Shown here: in pieces, positions 15,474 to 40,813 of the stretch
Position numbering within the stretch: position 1 is the stretch's first letter
Layout of the letters: each line of letters starts with the position of its first letter
IMG/VR virus record: IMGVR_UViG_2529292726_000019
Reading direction: 5' to 3' (one strand)
Length of the DNA stretch: 46,731 bases
DNA from: a virus
Taxonomy: Duplodnaviria; Heunggongvirae; Uroviricota; Caudoviricetes
Position numbers and translations under genes: made by a program
The notes under the pieces: model-generated
Seen by the model: the letters and a program-made list of their open reading frames with translations, nothing else
Told to the model about the DNA's origin: nothing
Database searches by the model: none

Positions 15474-16217
15474 TTACCATGTTCCCCATATAGGGTTTTC
15501 CAATAATCTCGCCTCCAACGAATTGGCTACTATTGCCGTTTGCAACGTTGGTTGGGGATAGTTTGCAAAGTCTGAATACTCATTTTCCTGCGTGACACGT
15601 TTATCTGCGGCATGTTTAACACCACTTGCTATGAAATGACGCATGATGCCCAACAGCCTCCGACTGTCTGCACTATCGTTTGCTAAAACATGAGGGAGCT
15701 GAAGTTCGATTTCTACCATTTCTCCATACTTACCAACAAACTGTAGTTTGTCCGCACTGTACTTTTTATCCCTCCTTTGGATAAGGAAACCAGTAAAAGC
15801 ATCACCTGGCGATGCCAAACTATCCACCCGCTTATTGGCAAGTCGAATAAGGTTCGTGAAAGCCATACAGTGATGCGCACCCATTCCCCCAAAGAACCCT
15901 TCGCTATTAATGTTAAGATCTTCAGTTTCATGGGATGCAATAAACCCAGGCCCGACGTTGGGAAGATATCCCCCCTCAACAAAAGGATTAATCAGGATCG
16001 GCGCAATACATCCAGGTGGTAGTGATTTCAAACTTTGCATCAATGGCGTCTCGGATATTAGACCAAGCAACGCGGCGAATTGTACTCCGTCAATATTGTT
16101 GCTGCCCCACAGAATACGTGGAGCCGCACCATTGGAAGTATGCCCATTGATCAGTTTTATCGACTGCATCACTGCAAATACCTGCAAAAACTGCGAGCGG
16201 CTTAATTTAAACGACAT
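15474..16217 (-). CDS. hypothetical protein (247 aa)
   Basis: ORF between the RuvC-like gene and sbcC; no motif recognised. Confidence 0.5.
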   Translation of the reverse strand: MSFKLSRSQFLQVFAVMQSIKLINGHTSNGAAPRILWGSNNIDGVQFAALLGLISETPLMQSLKSLPPGCIAPILINPFVEGGYLPNVGPGFIASHETEDLNINSEGFFGGMGAHHCMAFTNLIRLANKRVDSLASPGDAFTGFLIQRRDKKYSADKLQFVGKYGEMVEIELQLPHVLANDSADSRRLLGIMRHFIASGVKHAADKRVTQENEYSDFANYPQPTLQTAIVANSLEARLLENPIWGTW

Positions 16218-18123
16218 AGCTGCGCCCCTCTTTAACTTCCAGCGTAATAGTTTCCCGGAACCATGACTTCATCTCTTTATGGGAGATAATCAGCACAGTA
16301 CCTCGCTCGCGAGCTTTGGACTCCAGAATACCCATGAGGCGTTCAAGACCGGCTGTATCGAGTGCATCGTCAATTTCGTCGCCGATAAACAAATCGATGT
16401 TTTTACTCGCCCGGTTACTAACCAGATCCTGCAATGCCAAAGAACACGCAATGCGAACCTTCCGCTTCTCACCACCAGAGAGGGTCTGGAACGACTTACT
16501 TGAACCTTTCTTCTGCACACTAATGTTGAATTTGTCGCGATACTCACCTTTTTTAGTGACATCCATCGTCGACCACTCAGCAGTAATATTCCCGTCAGAC
16601 AACGTATTGAGATACTCGGCAGTGCGTGTATTCAGGAAAGGCGTAACAGACGTCAAAATATGAGAACGCACCCCGGCAGGAGAGTAGACCTGACGAGCTT
16701 TTTCCAATAGCAACGTTTGTTCCTGAATAGCCTTCAACTCATCTTTTAAGGACTTGAAGGTAGACTTACTGGATACCAGGTTATCTTCGTGTCTGGCGAT
16801 AAGAGCAATAAACGGATTAATCTCTTTTGATATACGATCGACCTCAGTACGAGCACGAGTCACAAGAGACTCAATAGCAACAACCTCCTTCTCACGATGA
16901 CGCAAAGATGAGAGTTGTTTCGTAAGCTCTTCAATCCGGGCAATGATAGCCGTTACATCAGGTGTCGTTTTAACAAGGGCAGACTCAATGCTTAACGCTT
17001 TCTCAAGATTCGTTTTGTGTTTAGCCATTGCCTCTGCAAGTGTCTTCGCCTGACCAATTTCCTGACGTGCTTGTTCAATGAAATTCTCCTTCACCGTTGA
17101 TAGATCTTCTTCGCAGTAGGCTTTGCCACAAGTAGGGCATGGTGATCCCACTTTAGTACCAACCTCTTCTGCTTTGGTCTTAAAATTACGCGCGCGGCTC
17201 ATTGCATCAGCCTGACTATTTTCTGTAGCTTTGATGCTTGCCCGAATATCAGTTATCGCACCACGAACTTTGAGCAACTTGGCGTCATGTTCTTCTTTTG
17301 AGGCTAACTTTTTGCGCTCACTTTCGATTGCCTTCTCGGTATCACGGATCTGTTCGGGAAGAGTGCGGATCTCAAGTTCAACTTCCGTTAACTCAACTTC
17401 GGCACTGGCCAGCCCAGCCAGGGCATCGTCATAACGTTTAGAACGCTCTTGCTCCCATGATTCAGAGGAGGCTTTCGCTGACTCAATTTCTGACTGTGTT
17501 GCCTCAATGGTCGAGATTGTCGACTCCAATTTGGTTTTAACCACATCCATACGTGCGGCAGCTGCATTAGCTCGCTCACGAGCAATAGCGTAGGCGCGTG
17601 TCAGTCTGTCAACGCCAGCGGCTTCTTCTACGATGGTTTTGAGGTTTTTGTCGGACATTCCAGGTAAATCTGGCATAGCTTCTTGGCTCGCATAGATGGA
17701 AGCCATGAAAACCTCTTTAGATGCACCGATCAGACGCTCGACGAACTCTTGCGTCAGCGCATCTTTGCCTTTCGTCATATCGCCGTCTTCACCACGAACG
17801 ATAAGCCGATTTTTGAACTCTTTGTGTTTACGGTGACGAATGATCGCATATCTCTTGCCTTCATCCTCGATGGTTACTGCAACACGACAGTTCTTTTCAT
17901 GGTCGGTAGACAACACATCGTCACCCTTCACACCATGAGCTGTTTCGCCATAAAGACACCACATCAGGCTATTCATTAGCGTTGACTTTCCAGAGCCATT
18001 ACTTGATGCGGAACTATCATCACTATTAACACCCTGAATGAGCACTAAACCACGCTGATCTAACTCGACCTCCGCGCTGGCGATAGCCATAAAATTCTCA
18101 ACCTGGAGCTTTAAAAACTTCAT
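16207..18123 (-). CDS. sbcC: SbcC/Rad50-like ATPase
   Basis: Walker A GSGKST, long coiled-coil centre with CPTCG zinc hook, signature LSGGEKRK and Walker B IGDEIDD. Confidence 0.8.
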   Translation of the reverse strand: MKFLKLQVENFMAIASAEVELDQRGLVLIQGVNSDDSSASSNGSGKSTLMNSLMWCLYGETAHGVKGDDVLSTDHEKNCRVAVTIEDEGKRYAIIRHRKHKEFKNRLIVRGEDGDMTKGKDALTQEFVERLIGASKEVFMASIYASQEAMPDLPGMSDKNLKTIVEEAAGVDRLTRAYAIARERANAAAARMDVVKTKLESTISTIEATQSEIESAKASSESWEQERSKRYDDALAGLASAEVELTEVELEIRTLPEQIRDTEKAIESERKKLASKEEHDAKLLKVRGAITDIRASIKATENSQADAMSRARNFKTKAEEVGTKVGSPCPTCGKAYCEEDLSTVKENFIEQARQEIGQAKTLAEAMAKHKTNLEKALSIESALVKTTPDVTAIIARIEELTKQLSSLRHREKEVVAIESLVTRARTEVDRISKEINPFIALIARHEDNLVSSKSTFKSLKDELKAIQEQTLLLEKARQVYSPAGVRSHILTSVTPFLNTRTAEYLNTLSDGNITAEWSTMDVTKKGEYRDKFNISVQKKGSSKSFQTLSGGEKRKVRIACSLALQDLVSNRASKNIDLFIGDEIDDALDTAGLERLMGILESKARERGTVLIISHKEMKSWFRETITLEVKEGRSYVV

Positions 18124-18352
18124 ATAACACCTTTGATACCGTGTGTTAGCTTTTGACCTTCTTTCAATCTGAACTCCGTATGCGCCGGGAAGGATCTGCG
18201 CCTCAATACGCCTTTTCTGGTTAACCTTCCAAGATAAAACGCTACGGGATTTCCTTGTGGCGGGTAGGGCTTGTGAAACATCACCGTCTGGCCTCGTTCA
18301 AGTCTTTTCATCGTGATGGCAAAGTCTCGAAAGCTCCCATAACGACTTTGCC

Positions 18353-19438
18353 TCACACAGCCTCCGAACTCTCCGCTTCGGTGAGGATTTCCTGACACAA
18401 AATATCCAACTTGCTCAGATCAAATCCGCCGTCAGTATCGTGGACAATCTTGCAATAAGCAGATACCGACTCTCCCAGGCTATCGATTTTGCTGGTTTCC
18501 GTTGTGCTTGCTGTCCCTTCCATCATTGATGACTTACGGATGAAGTTGCACACGACACCTTTTGCACCCATTGTTTTGAGGATGTTCTGGTACTTAATGC
18601 CTTCTTCATCGTTCTCAATTACGGCGCGGAAACGCACGTAGTTGCCGCGAATTTGGTCATCGGCAACATAATCTTCCAGGTTAATGAATTTAGGCGCACT
18701 GGTTTCGTAGTGACTGAAACTGCCGTCCGGGTTTACGATCATGTAACCAGCCAGAGATCCAACATCTCCCCAATTTTGATGGGTCAGCGCACCGACACTG
18801 ATAACTCCAGGAATGACCTCTTTGTGGTTGTGGTAATGCCCACTAAGCACGAGACGAAAGCCGATATCCTTTAACTCCTGCGCATCGATACCGACGTCAG
18901 GCATTGTTGGAATGGCTTTGTTAATGGATGTATGGATAACAACGTCATGATTATCACCTTCTACGCTCTTACGTAATGCTTTCAGATCGCTGATAAGCTC
19001 TGCATGATTGTTACGCCAGCTAATCAGGTGGACAGTCACATCACCAATTTTTATTGAGTGTGGGCGTTTGCCACATACGATTACCACGCCGATAGAACTC
19101 AGCGATGCTGCTGCGTTGGCGCTATATACTGAATCGTTGGTTTCAAGATCGTGATTACCGGCCAGCATTACTACTGTCAGATCAAGCTCGTTGATAATCC
19201 ACTTGTACGTTTCAGTTACGTAATGCAAAACAGAAGGGGACACAGTTCCTCGGACGTGAAATGTATCACCGGCAACCAACATGTACTTACAACCGGCCTT
19301 CTTCATGGCGATGGCTGCTTCTTTCGTTGCTTCCAACTGTATTTCAAGTCTGGAGTTAAGCCCCTCTGCGTTCGTCGTGGAGAACGCATCCCATTTGTGG
19401 TAGTGGCAGTCAGAAATGACGCCGTATGGCAAAGTCAT
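18353..19438 (-). CDS. sbcD: SbcD/Mre11-like nuclease
   Basis: Calcineurin-like phosphoesterase motifs GDTFH, GNHD, GHYH; conserved start region upstream. Confidence 0.8.
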   Translation of the reverse strand: MTLPYGVISDCHYHKWDAFSTTNAEGLNSRLEIQLEATKEAAIAMKKAGCKYMLVAGDTFHVRGTVSPSVLHYVTETYKWIINELDLTVVMLAGNHDLETNDSVYSANAAASLSSIGVVIVCGKRPHSIKIGDVTVHLISWRNNHAELISDLKALRKSVEGDNHDVVIHTSINKAIPTMPDVGIDAQELKDIGFRLVLSGHYHNHKEVIPGVISVGALTHQNWGDVGSLAGYMIVNPDGSFSHYETSAPKFINLEDYVADDQIRGNYVRFRAVIENDEEGIKYQNILKTMGAKGVVCNFIRKSSMMEGTASTTETSKIDSLGESVSAYCKIVHDTDGGFDLSKLDILCQEILTEAESSEAV

Positions 19439-19692: not shown

Positions 19693-20337
19693 TTACAGCG
19701 CGTCAGTGGGCTTTTTACGCGCTGCGTTTATGCTTATGACGCCAGCTTTTGGACGTGGGTCAACAAGGTTAAGCTCTTCTTCGCTGTGGTATTCGAGGTC
19801 GAACTCACGTTTTACATGTCTGATGTAGATTGCGGTGAGCAGGCTATTTTTGGTCAGAAAGTGTCCGTAGGATTTGCGGATCACTTCTTCTACCTTCTCG
19901 ATTTTCTCACCACCCATACAGAGATGATTAAACCGGCTGTGTTTCCGCAACATTTCGTCTACTGGGCCTGAGTAAACCTTGTCTACTTTCCCAAAACGGA
20001 TGATTTTCCCTGTGTCTGCGGATACGAGGCAAATCAGCTTGTCTGGTGATAAACGATCTCGCCACGTCACACCTGAACGGAGTGTGTTGAAGTAGGGAGC
20101 ATCCAATCCGATGATCGGTTTACGAAATGCGAGTAATGGAACGTACCTGATGCAACTGTTTAAATGAAAATTCACACCAGCCTTATCAAGTTTAATTCTG
20201 GTTTCGTAGATCGGGCACTTCGCCGCTATACCGCAGATGTCACAAAGCAACTTCTGCTTATTCAGGTTGGAATTTGATTCGATAGTGTAGGAGCCGTCTT
20301 CAAGACGACGAACCCAGCGCGTGCGTTTTAGATCCAT
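19693..20337 (-). CDS. hypothetical protein (214 aa)
   Basis: ORF with a CDICG...C cysteine cluster; no family recognised. Confidence 0.5.
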   Translation of the reverse strand: MDLKRTRWVRRLEDGSYTIESNSNLNKQKLLCDICGIAAKCPIYETRIKLDKAGVNFHLNSCIRYVPLLAFRKPIIGLDAPYFNTLRSGVTWRDRLSPDKLICLVSADTGKIIRFGKVDKVYSGPVDEMLRKHSRFNHLCMGGEKIEKVEEVIRKSYGHFLTKNSLLTAIYIRHVKREFDLEYHSEEELNLVDPRPKAGVISINAARKKPTDAL

Positions 20338-20536: not shown

Positions 20537-20648
20537 GTATGCTGTCAGCGGTAATTGATAGTCTGTCAGCGGTTCACCGTATGCTGCCAACTGTTTTTGG
20601 TATTCTGTCAGCGGCAAATCAAGTATGCTGTCAGCGGTTGAATGACAA
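20537..20648. repeat. five iterons (consensus GTATGCTGTCAGCGGT) upstream of repA at roughly 21-22 bp spacing
   Basis: Direct repeats at about 20537, 20559, 20579 (degenerate), 20600 and 20633. Confidence 0.8.
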
Positions 20649-20658
20649 AGGTGTCCAC

Positions 20659-21753
20659 ATGTCCACAAAAAATAAAAAAGGTAAAAATAACAAAGAAGTA
20701 GAAGATAACATCGACAACTTTGAAGAAGGTTCCCTTGAATTGTACACAGGGGAACTTGTCCCTAATAGCAACAATACAGTCCAACCAATTGCGTTGATGC
20801 GACTGGGGTTGTTCGTCCCCACGCTTAAGGGAACAAAATACAGTAAACGTAACAAGCCAAATGAGATCGATGCTTCAAAGGAGCTTGTCCAGCTCGAAGT
20901 AGCCCGTTCTGAAGGCTATTCCGATATCAAGATAACCGGTCCTCGTCTCGACATGGATCATGATTTCAAAACGTGGGTGGGCGTTGTGCGTTCGCTGGCA
21001 GAATACGGCGAACCTAACGGTCGTGTCGAGTTAAGCATCACGAAATTTGCTAAGTTTTGTGGCTATCCATCGTCACAGATCCGCAAAACACTCCGCGACC
21101 GGCTTACAAACAGTCTTTTGAAGATCATGCGTACAACTCTGTCTTTCCAGAGAACGTATGAAGAAAAGAACGTCGACGGCTCTAACAAGATCTCGCTTCT
21201 GATGGTGCACCTCATCAATAGCGTGGACTACAACGAGCAGAAAGATACGGTGGTGTTCTATGCAGAACCGAAGCTGGCCGAACTATATCGCTTTGACCAT
21301 AAGGTTCTTTTGCAGTTAAAGGTTATCAATAAGCTACCACGCAAAGAAACAGCACAGGCTCTGTACACCTTCATCGAAAGTCTTCCAACCAAGCCTGCGC
21401 CGGTATCGCTTGCTCGATTGCGTGCGCGACTCAATTTGAGTAGCAGAAATGTCAGCTCGCAGAATCAGACTATACGTAACGGCTTAAAAGCTCTCCAAGA
21501 TTTGGGCTATCTCGAATACAGCGAGATTAAGCGTGGGCGGTCGATCTATATCCAGATTCACAGCCGCAATCCAAAACTCAAAGTCGCACCGCCAAAACCT
21601 GAAGACATCGAACCCAAAAAACCAGATGAGAAAGCTGGGGAAATTGATGCCAAACAGAACATTATCAACAAGATAACCGAACTTTCGCAGAATTTGACGC
21701 CTGAAAATATCAAGATGATTGAGATCCTTTCCAATAGTCTCAAACTGCTTTGA
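20659..21753 (+). CDS. repA: iteron-binding replication initiator (RepA-like)
   Basis: Only long plus-strand gene in this block, bracketed by 17 copies of its presumptive binding site. Start placed at ATG 20659 (MSTKNKKGK) downstream of the iterons. Confidence 0.75.
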   Translation: MSTKNKKGKNNKEVEDNIDNFEEGSLELYTGELVPNSNNTVQPIALMRLGLFVPTLKGTKYSKRNKPNEIDASKELVQLEVARSEGYSDIKITGPRLDMDHDFKTWVGVVRSLAEYGEPNGRVELSITKFAKFCGYPSSQIRKTLRDRLTNSLLKIMRTTLSFQRTYEEKNVDGSNKISLLMVHLINSVDYNEQKDTVVFYAEPKLAELYRFDHKVLLQLKVINKLPRKETAQALYTFIESLPTKPAPVSLARLRARLNLSSRNVSSQNQTIRNGLKALQDLGYLEYSEIKRGRSIYIQIHSRNPKLKVAPPKPEDIEPKKPDEKAGEIDAKQNIINKITELSQNLTPENIKMIEILSNSLKLL

Positions 21754-21870
21754 TATGCTGTCAGCGGTGAAATGTATGCTATCAGCGGCTATTTTTCTGA
21801 AAAGTATGCTGTGAACGGTTAAAGATATGCTACCAGCGGTATAGTGAGATGAACGTATGCTGTGAGCGGT
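21754..21870. repeat. five iterons immediately downstream of repA
   Basis: Copies at about 21754, 21774, 21804, 21825 and 21855 with single-base variants. Confidence 0.8.
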
Positions 21871-22030
21871 AAATCATCTATCACCACTCAATGCTCTGTC
21901 ATACCTCCCCAGTGGTTACTAACCTCGAAGAGTGCATTCCATATAGGTTTGCGCTCACTAACATTCTATTGCTATTGCGCTGATTGCTTGTAGTGAAAGG
22001 CATTTATTGCCTGCTACTCCCTGATAGAAC

Positions 22031-22285
22031 GTATGCTGTCAGCGGTGTTTTATTGAGGAATTTTTGTTTGGATATGCTATCAGCGGTAATTAATGGTATA
22101 TGTCAGACATTCGTATGCTGCCAGCGGTAATTTTGTTCTGGTTATACCCATACCGGGACACATTATTCATGCAATTTCTTAAGTATGCTGTCAGCGGTAA
22201 AAAATCGAGTAAAGTATGCTGTGAGCGGTGAGATAGACTCTCGATATGCTATCAGCGGTAGTTGATTGTGTATGCTGTCAGCGGT
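22031..22285. repeat. seven further iterons (incA-like copy-control array)
   Basis: Copies at about 22031, 22072, 22114, 22183, 22214, 22244 and 22270. Confidence 0.8.
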
Positions 22286-22300
22286 GACGACTATGAAATA

Positions 22301-40115: not shown

Positions 40116-40202
40116 TGGCGGAGAGTAATGGAATCGAACCATCATCGCTTGCGCAATGGGACGGTTTTCAAGACCGCTTGAGCACCATGCTCCCTACTCT
40201 CC
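40116..40202 (-). tRNA. tRNA-Ser (anticodon TGA), class II with long variable arm
   Basis: Acceptor GGAGAGT/ACTCTCC, anticodon loop CTTGAAA, T-loop TTCGATT, encoded CCA. Confidence 0.7.
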
Positions 40203-40346
40203 GGCCGTTGTGGTGGCCGGGACTGAATCTCCGGCATACGGTGCAGCCAATTAGGACTACGGACGATCACCGCTCGCGAAAGGGAAGATTTGCGGCCGCA
40301 TTTCCCTAACATCCAAGAAAGCTATCGCATCAGTCTGCGAATCCAC

Positions 40347-40425
40347 CACAACGGTAAGATCACTACCTTTCGACCAGTCATTGTGCACATGAACGACGAT
40401 TAACCGTAATGATCTTATCGTTGTG
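40347..40425 (-). ncRNA. structured hairpin element 1 (stem cacaacggtaagatca / tgatcttatcgttgtg)
   Basis: About 79-nt imperfect hairpin; paralogous to element 2 and sharing the 3' flank gttgtgttg. Confidence 0.3.
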
Positions 40426-40476
40426 TTGTGAAGCCAGATGCTTATCTTCTGGTTGCCTCAAAGAGCTGCACTTCCT

Positions 40477-40565
40477 CACAACGGTAAGAGCACTGGTCTG
40501 ACTCTATCGATTTACGGGCTTGTGGGTCAGTATCGCCGATTCGCCCAATGCACTTACCTGTTGTG
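40477..40565 (-). ncRNA. structured hairpin element 2 (stem cacaacggtaag / cttacctgttgtg) abutting the 3' end of tRNA-Thr
   Basis: About 89-nt imperfect hairpin; does not fold as a tRNA by eye. Confidence 0.3.
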
Positions 40566-40566
40566 T

Positions 40567-40643
40567 TGGTGCCGGTTAACGGACTCGAACCGCTGACATC
40601 CTGCTTACAAGGCAGGCGCTCTACCAACTGAGCTAAACCGGCA
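40567..40643 (-). tRNA. tRNA-Thr (anticodon TGT)
   Basis: Reverse complement TGCCGGTTTAGCTCAGTTGGTAGAGCGCCTGCCTTGTAAGCAGGATGTCAGCGGTTCGAGTCCGTTAACCGGCACCA folds as a cloverleaf. Confidence 0.8.
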
Positions 40644-40646
40644 ATT

Positions 40647-40733
40647 TGGTGGGGAGTGATGGAGTCGAACCACCCGAGTCGCCATGACAGTAGATTTACA
40701 GTCTACCCCGCTGCCCCTACGGACTAACTCCCC
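40647..40733 (-). tRNA. tRNA-Tyr (anticodon GTA), long variable arm
   Basis: Acceptor GGGGAGT/ACTCCCC, anticodon stem-loop GTAGA-CTGTAAA-TCTAC, T-loop TTCGACT, CCA encoded. Confidence 0.8.
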
Positions 40734-40738
40734 TAAAT

Positions 40739-40813
40739 TGGCGATGGTGGGTGGATTCGAACCACCGACCAGTTGGTTAACAGCCAACTGCTCTACCGCT
40801 GAGCTACACCATC
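40739..40813 (-). tRNA. tRNA-Asn (anticodon GTT)
   Basis: Reverse complement GATGGTGTAGCTCAGCGGTAGAGCAGTTGGCTGTTAACCAACTGGTCGGTGGTTCGAATCCACCCACCATCGCCA. Confidence 0.8.

What the first reader, a model, noticed from the sequence alone, without database searches (positions are those of the whole stretch)
18124..18352. Unusual 230-bp spacer between sbcD and sbcC with a short basic ORF
SbcD and SbcC genes are usually adjacent or overlapping. Here they are separated by 230 bp that contains a 92-codon Arg/Lys-rich ORF (18120-18398) overlapping both neighbours. The spacer could encode a small nucleic-acid-binding protein, a structured RNA or a remnant of a mobile intervening element.
Basis: seen in the sequence. 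Interest (0 to 1): 0.4.

Follow-up and report, generated by a model that had tools for sequence, protein, structure and literature searches.

The report
Small winged-helix gene inside phage sbcDC operon
The 229-bp "spacer" between the phage-plasmid's sbcD-like and sbcC-like nuclease genes is a real, conserved 78-codon gene for a very basic, probably winged-helix protein of unknown function; databases already list it as a hypothetical protein.

Summary
On the minus strand, sbcD-like (18353-19438) and sbcC-like (16207-18123) are separated by 229 bp, and an ORF (18120-18398) fills the gap.

The gap is a protein-coding gene, not a spacer, structured RNA or mobile-element remnant.
- It has no indels across lineages down to about 70% nucleotide identity.
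- dN/dS is 0.11-0.21 in its frame and about 1 or more in four other frames; the codon-aligned antisense frame is 0.22-0.36.
- It reads as one uninterrupted match in 765 of 769 plasmids and in 12 phage records.
- It belongs to phrog_37951 (unknown function), and PGAP annotates it as a hypothetical protein.

The conserved start overlaps the sbcD stop (GTGA) and the stop overlaps the sbcC start (ATGA). The best gene model is therefore 18120-18356, 78 aa, pI 11.6.

The family occurs only in this slot of SSU5/pHCM2/pMT1-type phage-plasmids. It has three deeply divergent allele classes that recombine independently of the flanking genes, and some lineages lack it precisely.

The most likely role is a non-essential DNA-binding accessory of the phage SbcCD nuclease. 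This is inferred, not shown.

Interest is modest.

The parts
18353..19438 (-). sbcD-like (Mre11-type) metallophosphoesterase gene, 361 aa; first cistron of the coupled unit
   Evidence: ORF. Pfam Metallophos E 8e-10. phrog_100 'SbcD-like subunit of palindrome specific endonuclease' E 2.4e-92.
18120..18356 (-). Small gene in its best model: 78 aa, GTG start overlapping the sbcD TGA (GTGA), TGA stop overlapping the sbcC ATG (ATGA). Product is basic (pI 11.6) with a predicted winged-helix-like fold; member of phrog_37951.
18357..18398 (-). Extra 14 codons of the 92-aa ORF as annotated by PGAP (WP_001348682.1), lying inside sbcD; probably not translated as part of the small protein
   Evidence: PGAP model. 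Klebsiella, Cronobacter and the class B and C genes all start at the sbcD stop.
18309..18311 (-). Internal ATG used as the start in the SSU5 annotation (63-aa model); not conserved, and it would cut predicted helix 1
   Evidence: SSU5_074. Cronobacter P0016 has Ile and class C has no Met at this column. Helix 6-20 of the model spans it.
18127..18135 (-). Shine-Dalgarno-like AAAGGTG for sbcC, embedded in the last codons of the small gene; it explains the conserved C-terminal (I/V)(R/K)G
   Evidence: Junction alignment: AGAGG or AAAGG sits 6-9 nt upstream of the sbcC ATG in all lineages.
16207..18123 (-). sbcC-like (Rad50-type) ATPase gene, 638 aa; third cistron
   Evidence: ORF. AAA_23 E 6.7e-17 and SMC_N E 6.4e-14. 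phrog_77 E 4.5e-165.

Best explanation
The 'spacer' is a genuine 78-codon gene (18120..18356, minus strand) set between the sbcD-like and sbcC-like genes of an SSU5/pHCM2-type phage-plasmid.

Its start codon overlaps the sbcD stop (GTGA). Its stop overlaps the sbcC start (ATGA), and the sbcC ribosome-binding site lies in its last codons. The three cistrons are therefore read as one translationally coupled unit.

The product is a roughly 9-kDa, very basic protein (net charge about +13). Its predicted fold is a winged helix of the eS10/plectin type: helix, strand, loop, helix, beta-hairpin wing.

Most likely (inferred) it binds DNA and acts alongside the phage SbcCD (Mre11-Rad50-like) nuclease as a dispensable, lineage-specific accessory or modulator. 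It could, for example, help the complex engage or discriminate DNA substrates.

Shown: the coding status, the coupling geometry, the exclusive association with this slot, the fold prediction, and the modular allele exchange. Inferred: DNA binding and any physical or functional interaction with SbcC or SbcD.
For: Coding status.
- The gene is 237 nt with no indels in 8 lineages at 70-100% nucleotide identity.
- Variable columns by codon position are 39/29/69 of 76.
- dN/dS is 0.11-0.21 in the ORF frame and about 1 or more in four other frames; the codon-aligned antisense frame, which mirrors the ORF frame, is 0.22-0.36.
- The ORF is uninterrupted in 765 of 769 plasmids and in 12 phage records.
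- phrog_37951 matches at E 4e-38. It is annotated as a CDS in RefSeq and in SSU5.

Coupling. An [A/G]TG overlapping the sbcD stop, and an ATGA at sbcC, are conserved in allele classes A, B and C.

Exclusive context. Every relative found among 5.8 and 1.8 billion proteins whose locus was examined sits between a Metallophos gene and, wherever the contig extends that far, an SMC_N/AAA_23 gene.

Fold.
- AF2 gives pLDDT 79 and pTM 0.65, with elements H6-20, E25-28, H37-47, E51-55, E59-64.
- The top Foldseek hit is eS10.
- Sub-threshold sequence hits are all to winged-helix families: ANAPC2, MCM_WH_arc and Sso10a.

Charge. pI is 10.1-11.7 in all classes.
Against: - There is no experimental evidence of expression, DNA binding or interaction with SbcC or SbcD.
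- The fold model rests on a shallow alignment of 21 sequences; a first run with 18 closer sequences gave pLDDT 45.
- Two related phage-plasmid lineages lack the gene, with sbcD and sbcC directly overlapping. One complete 109-kb plasmid of this kind has no homologue anywhere. The protein therefore cannot be an obligatory subunit.
- It evolves 5-10 times less constrained than its neighbours.
- Operon position alone does not prove shared function.
Confidence: 0.55

Rival explanations
1. The small protein is an autonomous winged-helix transcription factor, for example an autorepressor of the replication/recombination operon or another phage-plasmid switch. It merely rides in the sbcDC operon and has no direct role in the nuclease.
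Against: The best structural matches are not regulators but eS10-type winged helices. The model lacks helix 2 of the helix-turn-helix. The family is never found outside the sbcD-sbcC slot. No promoter-like site or palindromic operator was seen in or next to the region. No Pfam or NCBIfam regulator family is matched at significance.
Confidence: 0.15
2. The small protein is a specificity, immunity or antagonist factor in a conflict. It could protect the element's own DNA from its SbcCD-like nuclease, or counter a host or competitor system. That would explain why deeply divergent alleles are kept and swapped between otherwise similar backbones.
For: Three allele classes are about 35% identical to each other and occupy the same slot. 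Contig L014 has flanks 91% and 87% identical to the window, yet no blastn similarity across the small gene, with the break exactly at the sbcD stop. Conversely, for window versus CP53 the small gene has dS 0.14 and omega 0.8, while the flanks have dS above 2 and omega 0.02-0.04. The gene is precisely present or absent between lineages.
Against: Within class A the protein is under clear purifying selection (omega 0.11-0.21) with an invariant core. Mosaic exchange at gene borders is common in phages without any conflict. The omega 0.8 value rests on only 25 substitutions. No match to PADLOC was sought and no anti-defence family is known for it.
Confidence: 0.15
3. The region is a non-coding spacer: a structured RNA, a regulatory element or a decayed mobile insertion. 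The ORF would be fortuitous, or would matter only as a translational-coupling bridge.
For: Several annotations (Cyrano, the CP53-type E. coli plasmids) do not call the ORF. The conserved C-terminal residues coincide with the sbcC Shine-Dalgarno sequence.
Against: The selection signature is frame-specific and there are no indels. The amino-acid core is invariant across classes. There is no Rfam hit, RNA folding gives z = +0.71, and there are no terminal repeats. Lineages without the gene couple sbcD to sbcC directly, so no bridge is needed.
Confidence: 0.03

Closest known systems
phrog_37951 (PHROGs v4, unknown function) / RefSeq WP_001348682.1, SSU5_074 (YP_006906706.1)
   Same: It is the same protein family: the HMM match is E 4e-38 over 73 of 77 profile positions, with the same position in SSU5, pHCM2, pMT1 and Klebsiella phage-plasmids.
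   Different: Databases give no function and use inconsistent gene models (92, 88, 78, 77 or 63 aa, or no call). This analysis adds the fold prediction, the conserved start, the allele classes and the presence/absence pattern.
Phage T4 genes 46.2 and 46.1 (DUF5487) between gene 47 (SbcD-like) and gene 46 (SbcC-like)
   Same: Small ORFs (87 and 68 aa) sit in the same slot of a phage Mre11/Rad50-type operon, with 4-nt overlaps to both neighbours. Their function is also unknown.
   Different: No detectable sequence relationship: hhalign probability is 0.1%. T4 has two genes rather than one. Structural similarity was not tested.
eS10 / plectin-type winged-helix domain (Pfam S10_plectin)
   Different: No sequence-level match: there is no Pfam hit even at E 10, and identity is 8-19%. 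eS10 is a eukaryotic ribosomal RNA-binding protein. The similarity is of fold only.
Bacterial/archaeal winged-HTH DNA binders (ArsR, PadR, MarR, Sso10a, SSV1 F-112, Z-alpha/Z-beta)
   Different: Helix 2 of the HTH is missing in the model, no family threshold is met, and no operator was identified.
Accessory subunits of SMC/Rad50-type ATPases (Nbs1/Xrs2 of MRN; winged-helix 'kite' subunits ScpB/MukE; kleisin WHD). Recalled from general knowledge, not tested.
   Same: The concept is a non-catalytic partner, often of winged-helix fold, encoded and produced together with an SMC-like ATPase complex.
   Different: There is no sequence or structural evidence of homology, and the interaction with SbcC or SbcD is untested. 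Kite proteins carry tandem winged-helix domains and are much larger.

Membership tests
phrog_37951 (phage protein family, unknown function) | Significant match to the family HMM over most of its length | tested here: met
   E 4.1e-38, residues 4-76 against profile positions 3-75 of 77. Class B matches at 4.8e-9 and class C at 1.1e-5.
Protein-coding gene (versus non-coding spacer) | Frame-specific purifying selection, absence of frame-breaking indels, conserved start and stop | tested here: met
   No indels in 8 lineages. omega is 0.11-0.21 in frame and about 1 or more in four other frames, with 0.22-0.36 in the mirrored antisense frame. The start overlaps the sbcD stop in all classes. 765 of 769 plasmids are uninterrupted.
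Winged-helix fold | H1-S1-H2-H3-S2-wing-S3 topology | tested here: inconclusive
Winged-helix fold | Significant sequence match to a curated winged-helix family | tested here: not met
   Only sub-threshold hits: ANAPC2 0.022, MCM_WH_arc 0.074, Sso10a 0.021. None in PDB sequences.
Nucleic-acid-binding protein | Demonstrated binding to DNA or RNA | not testable with these tools
   Only indirect evidence: pI 10.1-11.7 and net charge +9 to +13 in all classes.
SbcCD / Mre11-Rad50 complex subunit | Physical association with SbcC or SbcD | not testable with these tools
   Only genomic evidence: exclusive location between the two genes and translational coupling.
SbcCD / Mre11-Rad50 complex subunit | Present wherever the complex is present within the phage-plasmid group | tested here: not met
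   Absent from CP032196 and CP056140, where sbcD and sbcC overlap by 4 nt. No homologue anywhere in the 109-kb CP032196 (best E 0.34 against 5e-44 for the control).
Rfam structured RNA | Covariance-model match, or folding energy beyond shuffled controls | tested here: not met
   No relevant Rfam match even at E 10 or at gathering thresholds. z = +0.71; 154 of 200 shuffles fold at least as well.
Mobile-element remnant (IS/MITE/homing endonuclease/intron) | Terminal inverted or direct repeats, target duplication, or an endonuclease or transposase domain | tested here: not met
   Only one weak 16-nt inverted pair at 81% complementarity and chance-level direct repeats. No Pfam domain. The insert is bounded exactly by start and stop overlaps.
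T4 gp46.1 (DUF5487) / gp46.2 | Sequence homology | tested here: not met
   hhalign probability 0.1%, E 0.4-0.5.

The most novel reading that the evidence does not exclude
The small winged-helix protein is a lineage-specific third component of the phage-plasmid SbcCD (Mre11-Rad50-like) nuclease. It would set substrate or self/non-self specificity, for example by sparing the element's own DNA or redirecting the nuclease. Its three deeply divergent, recombining allele classes, and its precise loss in some lineages, would reflect an ongoing conflict or specificity diversification. This would be a prokaryotic-virus counterpart of accessory subunits such as Nbs1 or SMC kite proteins, and possibly a functional analogue of the unexplained T4 46.1/46.2 genes.
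Probability: 0.2. Interest if true: 0.6.

Novelty: new member of a known kind. Interest (0 to 1): 0.3.

Why it matters
SSU5/pHCM2/pMT1-type phage-plasmids are common in clinical E. coli, Klebsiella, Salmonella Typhi and Yersinia pestis. This gene is present in about 770 sequenced plasmids, yet it is annotated inconsistently or not at all.

A corrected gene model and a fold assignment give a concrete, cheap experimental target. The question is whether a roughly 9-kDa basic winged-helix protein co-purifies with, or modulates, a phage Mre11-Rad50-type nuclease.

If it does, it would be a rare example of an accessory factor for bacterial or phage SbcCD. It might also shed light on the equally unexplained small genes in the same slot of phage T4.

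If it does not, it remains an ordinary small phage ORF.

Tried and rejected
- Rfam scans of the region at E up to 10 and of the whole window at gathering thresholds found only a chance snoRNA hit and three tRNAs elsewhere.
- RNA folding of the 229-nt gap was no better than shuffled sequence.
- The promoter/terminator scan found nothing in or next to the gap.
- The repeat search found no terminal repeats.
- Pfam, NCBIfam and PDB-sequence searches of the small protein gave no significant hit.
- The first AlphaFold run, with 18 close relatives, gave an unusable model at pLDDT 45. It was usable only after adding class B and C sequences.
- The BFVD fold search returned only weak matches to uncharacterised proteins. 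The afdb50 library was unavailable.
- A third iteration of the homology search, with a class C-led profile, found no new members.
- hhalign against T4 gp46.1 and gp46.2 found no relationship.
- Literature searches found no paper on this ORF, and the Klebsiella p2 plasmid paper does not mention the nuclease genes.
- The 92-aa (PGAP) and 63-aa (SSU5) gene models were considered and judged less likely than the 78-aa model.
- A frameshift fusion to SbcD was considered and set aside, because every class keeps its own start codon at the sbcD stop.
- PADLOC was not searched.

Full report
**Source of the window.** The region 17600-18900 is 100% identical to Escherichia phage CMS-2020a and to dozens of E. 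coli plasmids of about 110 kb. It is 98.5% identical to phage Cyrano and about 80% identical to Salmonella phage SSU5. Diverged copies occur in Salmonella Typhi pHCM2, Yersinia pestis pMT1, Enterobacter, Citrobacter, Cronobacter and Klebsiella plasmids: 808 plasmid records by sensitive blastn. The window is therefore part of an SSU5-type phage-plasmid.

**Checking the observation.** All three ORFs lie on the minus strand.
- The sbcD-like gene is 18353..19438 (361 aa). It matches Metallophos and phrog_100 at E 2e-92.
- The sbcC-like gene is 16207..18123 (638 aa). It matches AAA_23 and SMC_N and phrog_77 at E 4.5e-165.
- They are separated by 18124..18352, which is 229 bp.
- A 92-codon GTG ORF (18120..18398) spans the gap and overlaps both neighbours.

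**Is it a gene?**
- RefSeq/PGAP annotates it as a hypothetical protein (WP_001348682.1, 92 aa) in close relatives. SSU5 carries it as SSU5_074 (63 aa), pHCM2 as 92 aa, pMT1 as 88 aa, and Klebsiella plasmids as 77 aa. Cyrano and the CP53-type E. coli plasmids leave it unannotated.
- In eight lineages spanning 70-100% nucleotide identity, the segment from the sbcD stop to the sbcC start is always 237 nt with no indel, and it is open in one frame.
- Variable alignment columns fall 39/29/69 on codon positions 1/2/3.
- Nei-Gojobori dN/dS is 0.11-0.21 in that frame. It is about 1 or more in four other frames. The codon-aligned antisense frame gives 0.22-0.36, as expected because it mirrors the ORF frame.
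- tblastn with the product finds one copy in each of 769 plasmids. In 765 of them it is a single uninterrupted match. It also finds 12 phage records.
- The product belongs to phrog_37951, unknown function (E 4e-38).

This is a protein-coding gene under purifying selection. It is 5-10 times less constrained than sbcD and sbcC, whose omega is 0.01-0.04.

**Alternatives to coding.**
- Rfam gives nothing relevant.
- The gap RNA folds no better than shuffled sequence (z = +0.71).
- There are no promoter-like or terminator-like sites.
- There are no terminal repeats.
- No Pfam domain matches, and in particular none typical of mobile elements.

**Gene model and coupling (unless stated).**
- In every lineage an initiation codon overlaps the sbcD stop: GTGA in E. 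coli, Salmonella, Yersinia and Enterobacter; TAGTG in Klebsiella; ATGA in two divergent classes.
- The stop overlaps the sbcC start (ATGA). The exceptions are class B, which has a 9-nt gap, and pMT1, where an AGA-to-TGA change truncates four codons.
- The internal ATG used by the SSU5 annotation is not conserved. Cronobacter has Ile there and class C has no Met. That ATG also lies inside predicted helix 1.
- The 14 extra codons of the PGAP model lie within sbcD and have no counterpart in Klebsiella or in classes B and C.
- The best model is therefore 18120..18356, 78 aa.
- The sbcC Shine-Dalgarno sequence (AAAGG or AGAGG) lies in the last codons of the small gene. This explains the conserved C-terminal (I/V)(R/K)G.
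- The three cistrons form one translationally coupled unit.

**What the protein looks like.**
- It is very basic: 17 K+R against 4 D+E, pI 11.6. All classes fall between pI 10.1 and 11.7.
- Sequence searches of Pfam, NCBIfam and PDB give no significant hit. The only sub-threshold hits are all to winged-helix families: ANAPC2, the archaeal MCM winged helix, and Sso10a.
- AlphaFold2 with 18 close relatives failed (pLDDT 45). After adding the divergent classes (21 sequences) it gave pLDDT 79 and pTM 0.65, with helix 6-20, strand 25-28, a Pro-rich loop, helix 37-47 and a beta hairpin at 51-55 and 59-64.

I conclude, with moderate confidence, that the fold is winged-helix-like and lacks the canonical helix 2. 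DNA or RNA binding is an inference from fold and charge.

**Distribution and evolution.**
- Exhaustive profile searches (1.84 billion representatives; 5.8 billion clusters) find only about 35 clusters. The family did not grow on iteration.
- Every locus examined places the gene directly after the Metallophos (SbcD-like) gene. Wherever the contig extends far enough, the SMC_N (SbcC-like) gene follows, within the same synteny: repA, a 214-aa gene, sbcD, the small gene, sbcC, a 247-aa gene, a 189-aa gene, and RNR.
- There are three allele classes, about 35-40% identical to each other. Class A includes the window, SSU5, pHCM2, pMT1, Klebsiella and Cronobacter. Class B is 72 aa (P0026, P0032). Class C is 78 aa (P0029, P0033, P0035, P0037).
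- The classes share the pattern L..G..V...(Y)L..L...G.L.R......H.EF.L...Q.
- The alleles move independently of their flanks. Contig L014 is 91% identical to the window up to the last base of the sbcD stop, and 87% identical from 9 nt before the sbcC ATG. It has no blastn similarity in between. SbcD is 98.6% identical while the small protein is 35% identical.
- The opposite pattern also occurs. Between the window and the CP53-type E. coli plasmids the small gene has dS 0.14 while both flanks have dS above 2. The 25 substitutions since then are 18.5 non-synonymous to 6.5 synonymous, giving omega 0.8.
- Two Klebsiella phage-plasmid lineages (CP032196, CP056140) lack the gene precisely, and their sbcD and sbcC overlap in ATGA. 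The complete 109-kb CP032196 encodes no homologue anywhere: best E is 0.34 against 5e-44 for the control.

The gene is thus a discrete, exchangeable and dispensable module.

**Comparison with what is known.**
- The gene is already catalogued, in phrog_37951 and as RefSeq hypothetical proteins, but without a function.
- Phage T4 shows the same architecture: gene 47, then 46.2, then 46.1, then gene 46, with 4-nt overlaps. Small genes in this slot are therefore not unprecedented in phages.
- The T4 proteins show no sequence relationship to this family.
- Literature searches found nothing on this ORF.

**Mechanism.** The best-supported reading is a small basic winged-helix protein made together with SbcD and SbcC through translational coupling. 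It would act as a non-essential DNA-binding accessory or modulator of the phage nuclease. Three rivals remain:
- An independent winged-helix regulator.
- A specificity or immunity factor in a conflict. The allele pattern suggests this, but it rests on few substitutions and on ordinary phage mosaicism.
- A non-coding spacer, which is effectively excluded.

None of the functional readings can be tested with the tools at hand. Complex prediction, co-purification, EMSA and a clean deletion would decide between them.

**Verdict.** However, the feature is an ordinary, already-annotated small phage gene of unknown function. What this analysis adds is a corrected gene model, a fold assignment, and evidence of modular allele exchange and precise loss. 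Interest is modest (0.3).

Noticed in passing
window 20537-20645 and 21753-22292: Fifteen copies of an iteron-like repeat (core GTATGCTGTCAGCGGT) flank the repA-like gene (20539..21753, + strand): four upstream or overlapping its start, eleven downstream. This is typical of a Rep3/iteron plasmid replicon. It also produces the many spurious 'MLSAV...' ORFs listed.
   Followed up: partly
window 40116-40813, minus strand: A cluster of four tRNA genes by ARAGORN: Ser(tga), Thr(tgt), Tyr(gta), Asn(gtt). Rfam confirms three of them at gathering score; the Ser call at 40116-40202 is not confirmed.
   Followed up: no
window 15474-16217, minus strand: A 247-aa ORF overlaps the sbcC stop by 11 nt. It belongs to phrog_2117 (unknown function, no Pfam domain). 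It follows sbcC in every related locus examined, so the coupled unit may extend to a fourth gene.
   Followed up: no
L008 (Y. pestis CO92 pMT1) 715-951: The pMT1 allele of the small gene has a premature stop four codons before the usual end (AGA to TGA). This removes the ATGA overlap with sbcC but keeps a GAGG ribosome-binding site.
   Followed up: partly
window 16207-18123 versus L014/L018/L017/SSU5: The central (coiled-coil) part of sbcC is much more divergent between lineages (about 50-80% nucleotide identity in 100-nt windows) than the head-domain ends (85-100%). Identity profiles are patchy, indicating mosaic recombination within sbcC as well.
   Followed up: partly
L021 (K. pneumoniae AR_0097 plasmid CP032196) 32315-33012: In the lineage that lacks the small gene, an IS1 transposase sits immediately downstream of sbcC, where the 247-aa gene normally overlaps it. 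The neighbouring ORF is annotated as 633 nt only.
   Followed up: no
window 19693-20337, minus strand: A 214-aa ORF upstream of sbcD belongs to phrog_2105 and has no Pfam hit here. The Cyrano record labels it 'ASCH RNA-binding domain containing protein'. It is conserved in the synteny of all lineages, including those without the small gene.
   Followed up: no
window 18120-18398 and relatives: Public annotations of the same ORF disagree: 92 aa (PGAP for E. coli, Salmonella), 88 aa (pMT1), 77-78 aa (Klebsiella, Cronobacter, some Salmonella), 63 aa (SSU5), 53 aa (some assemblies), or no call (Cyrano, CP53-type).
   Followed up: yes
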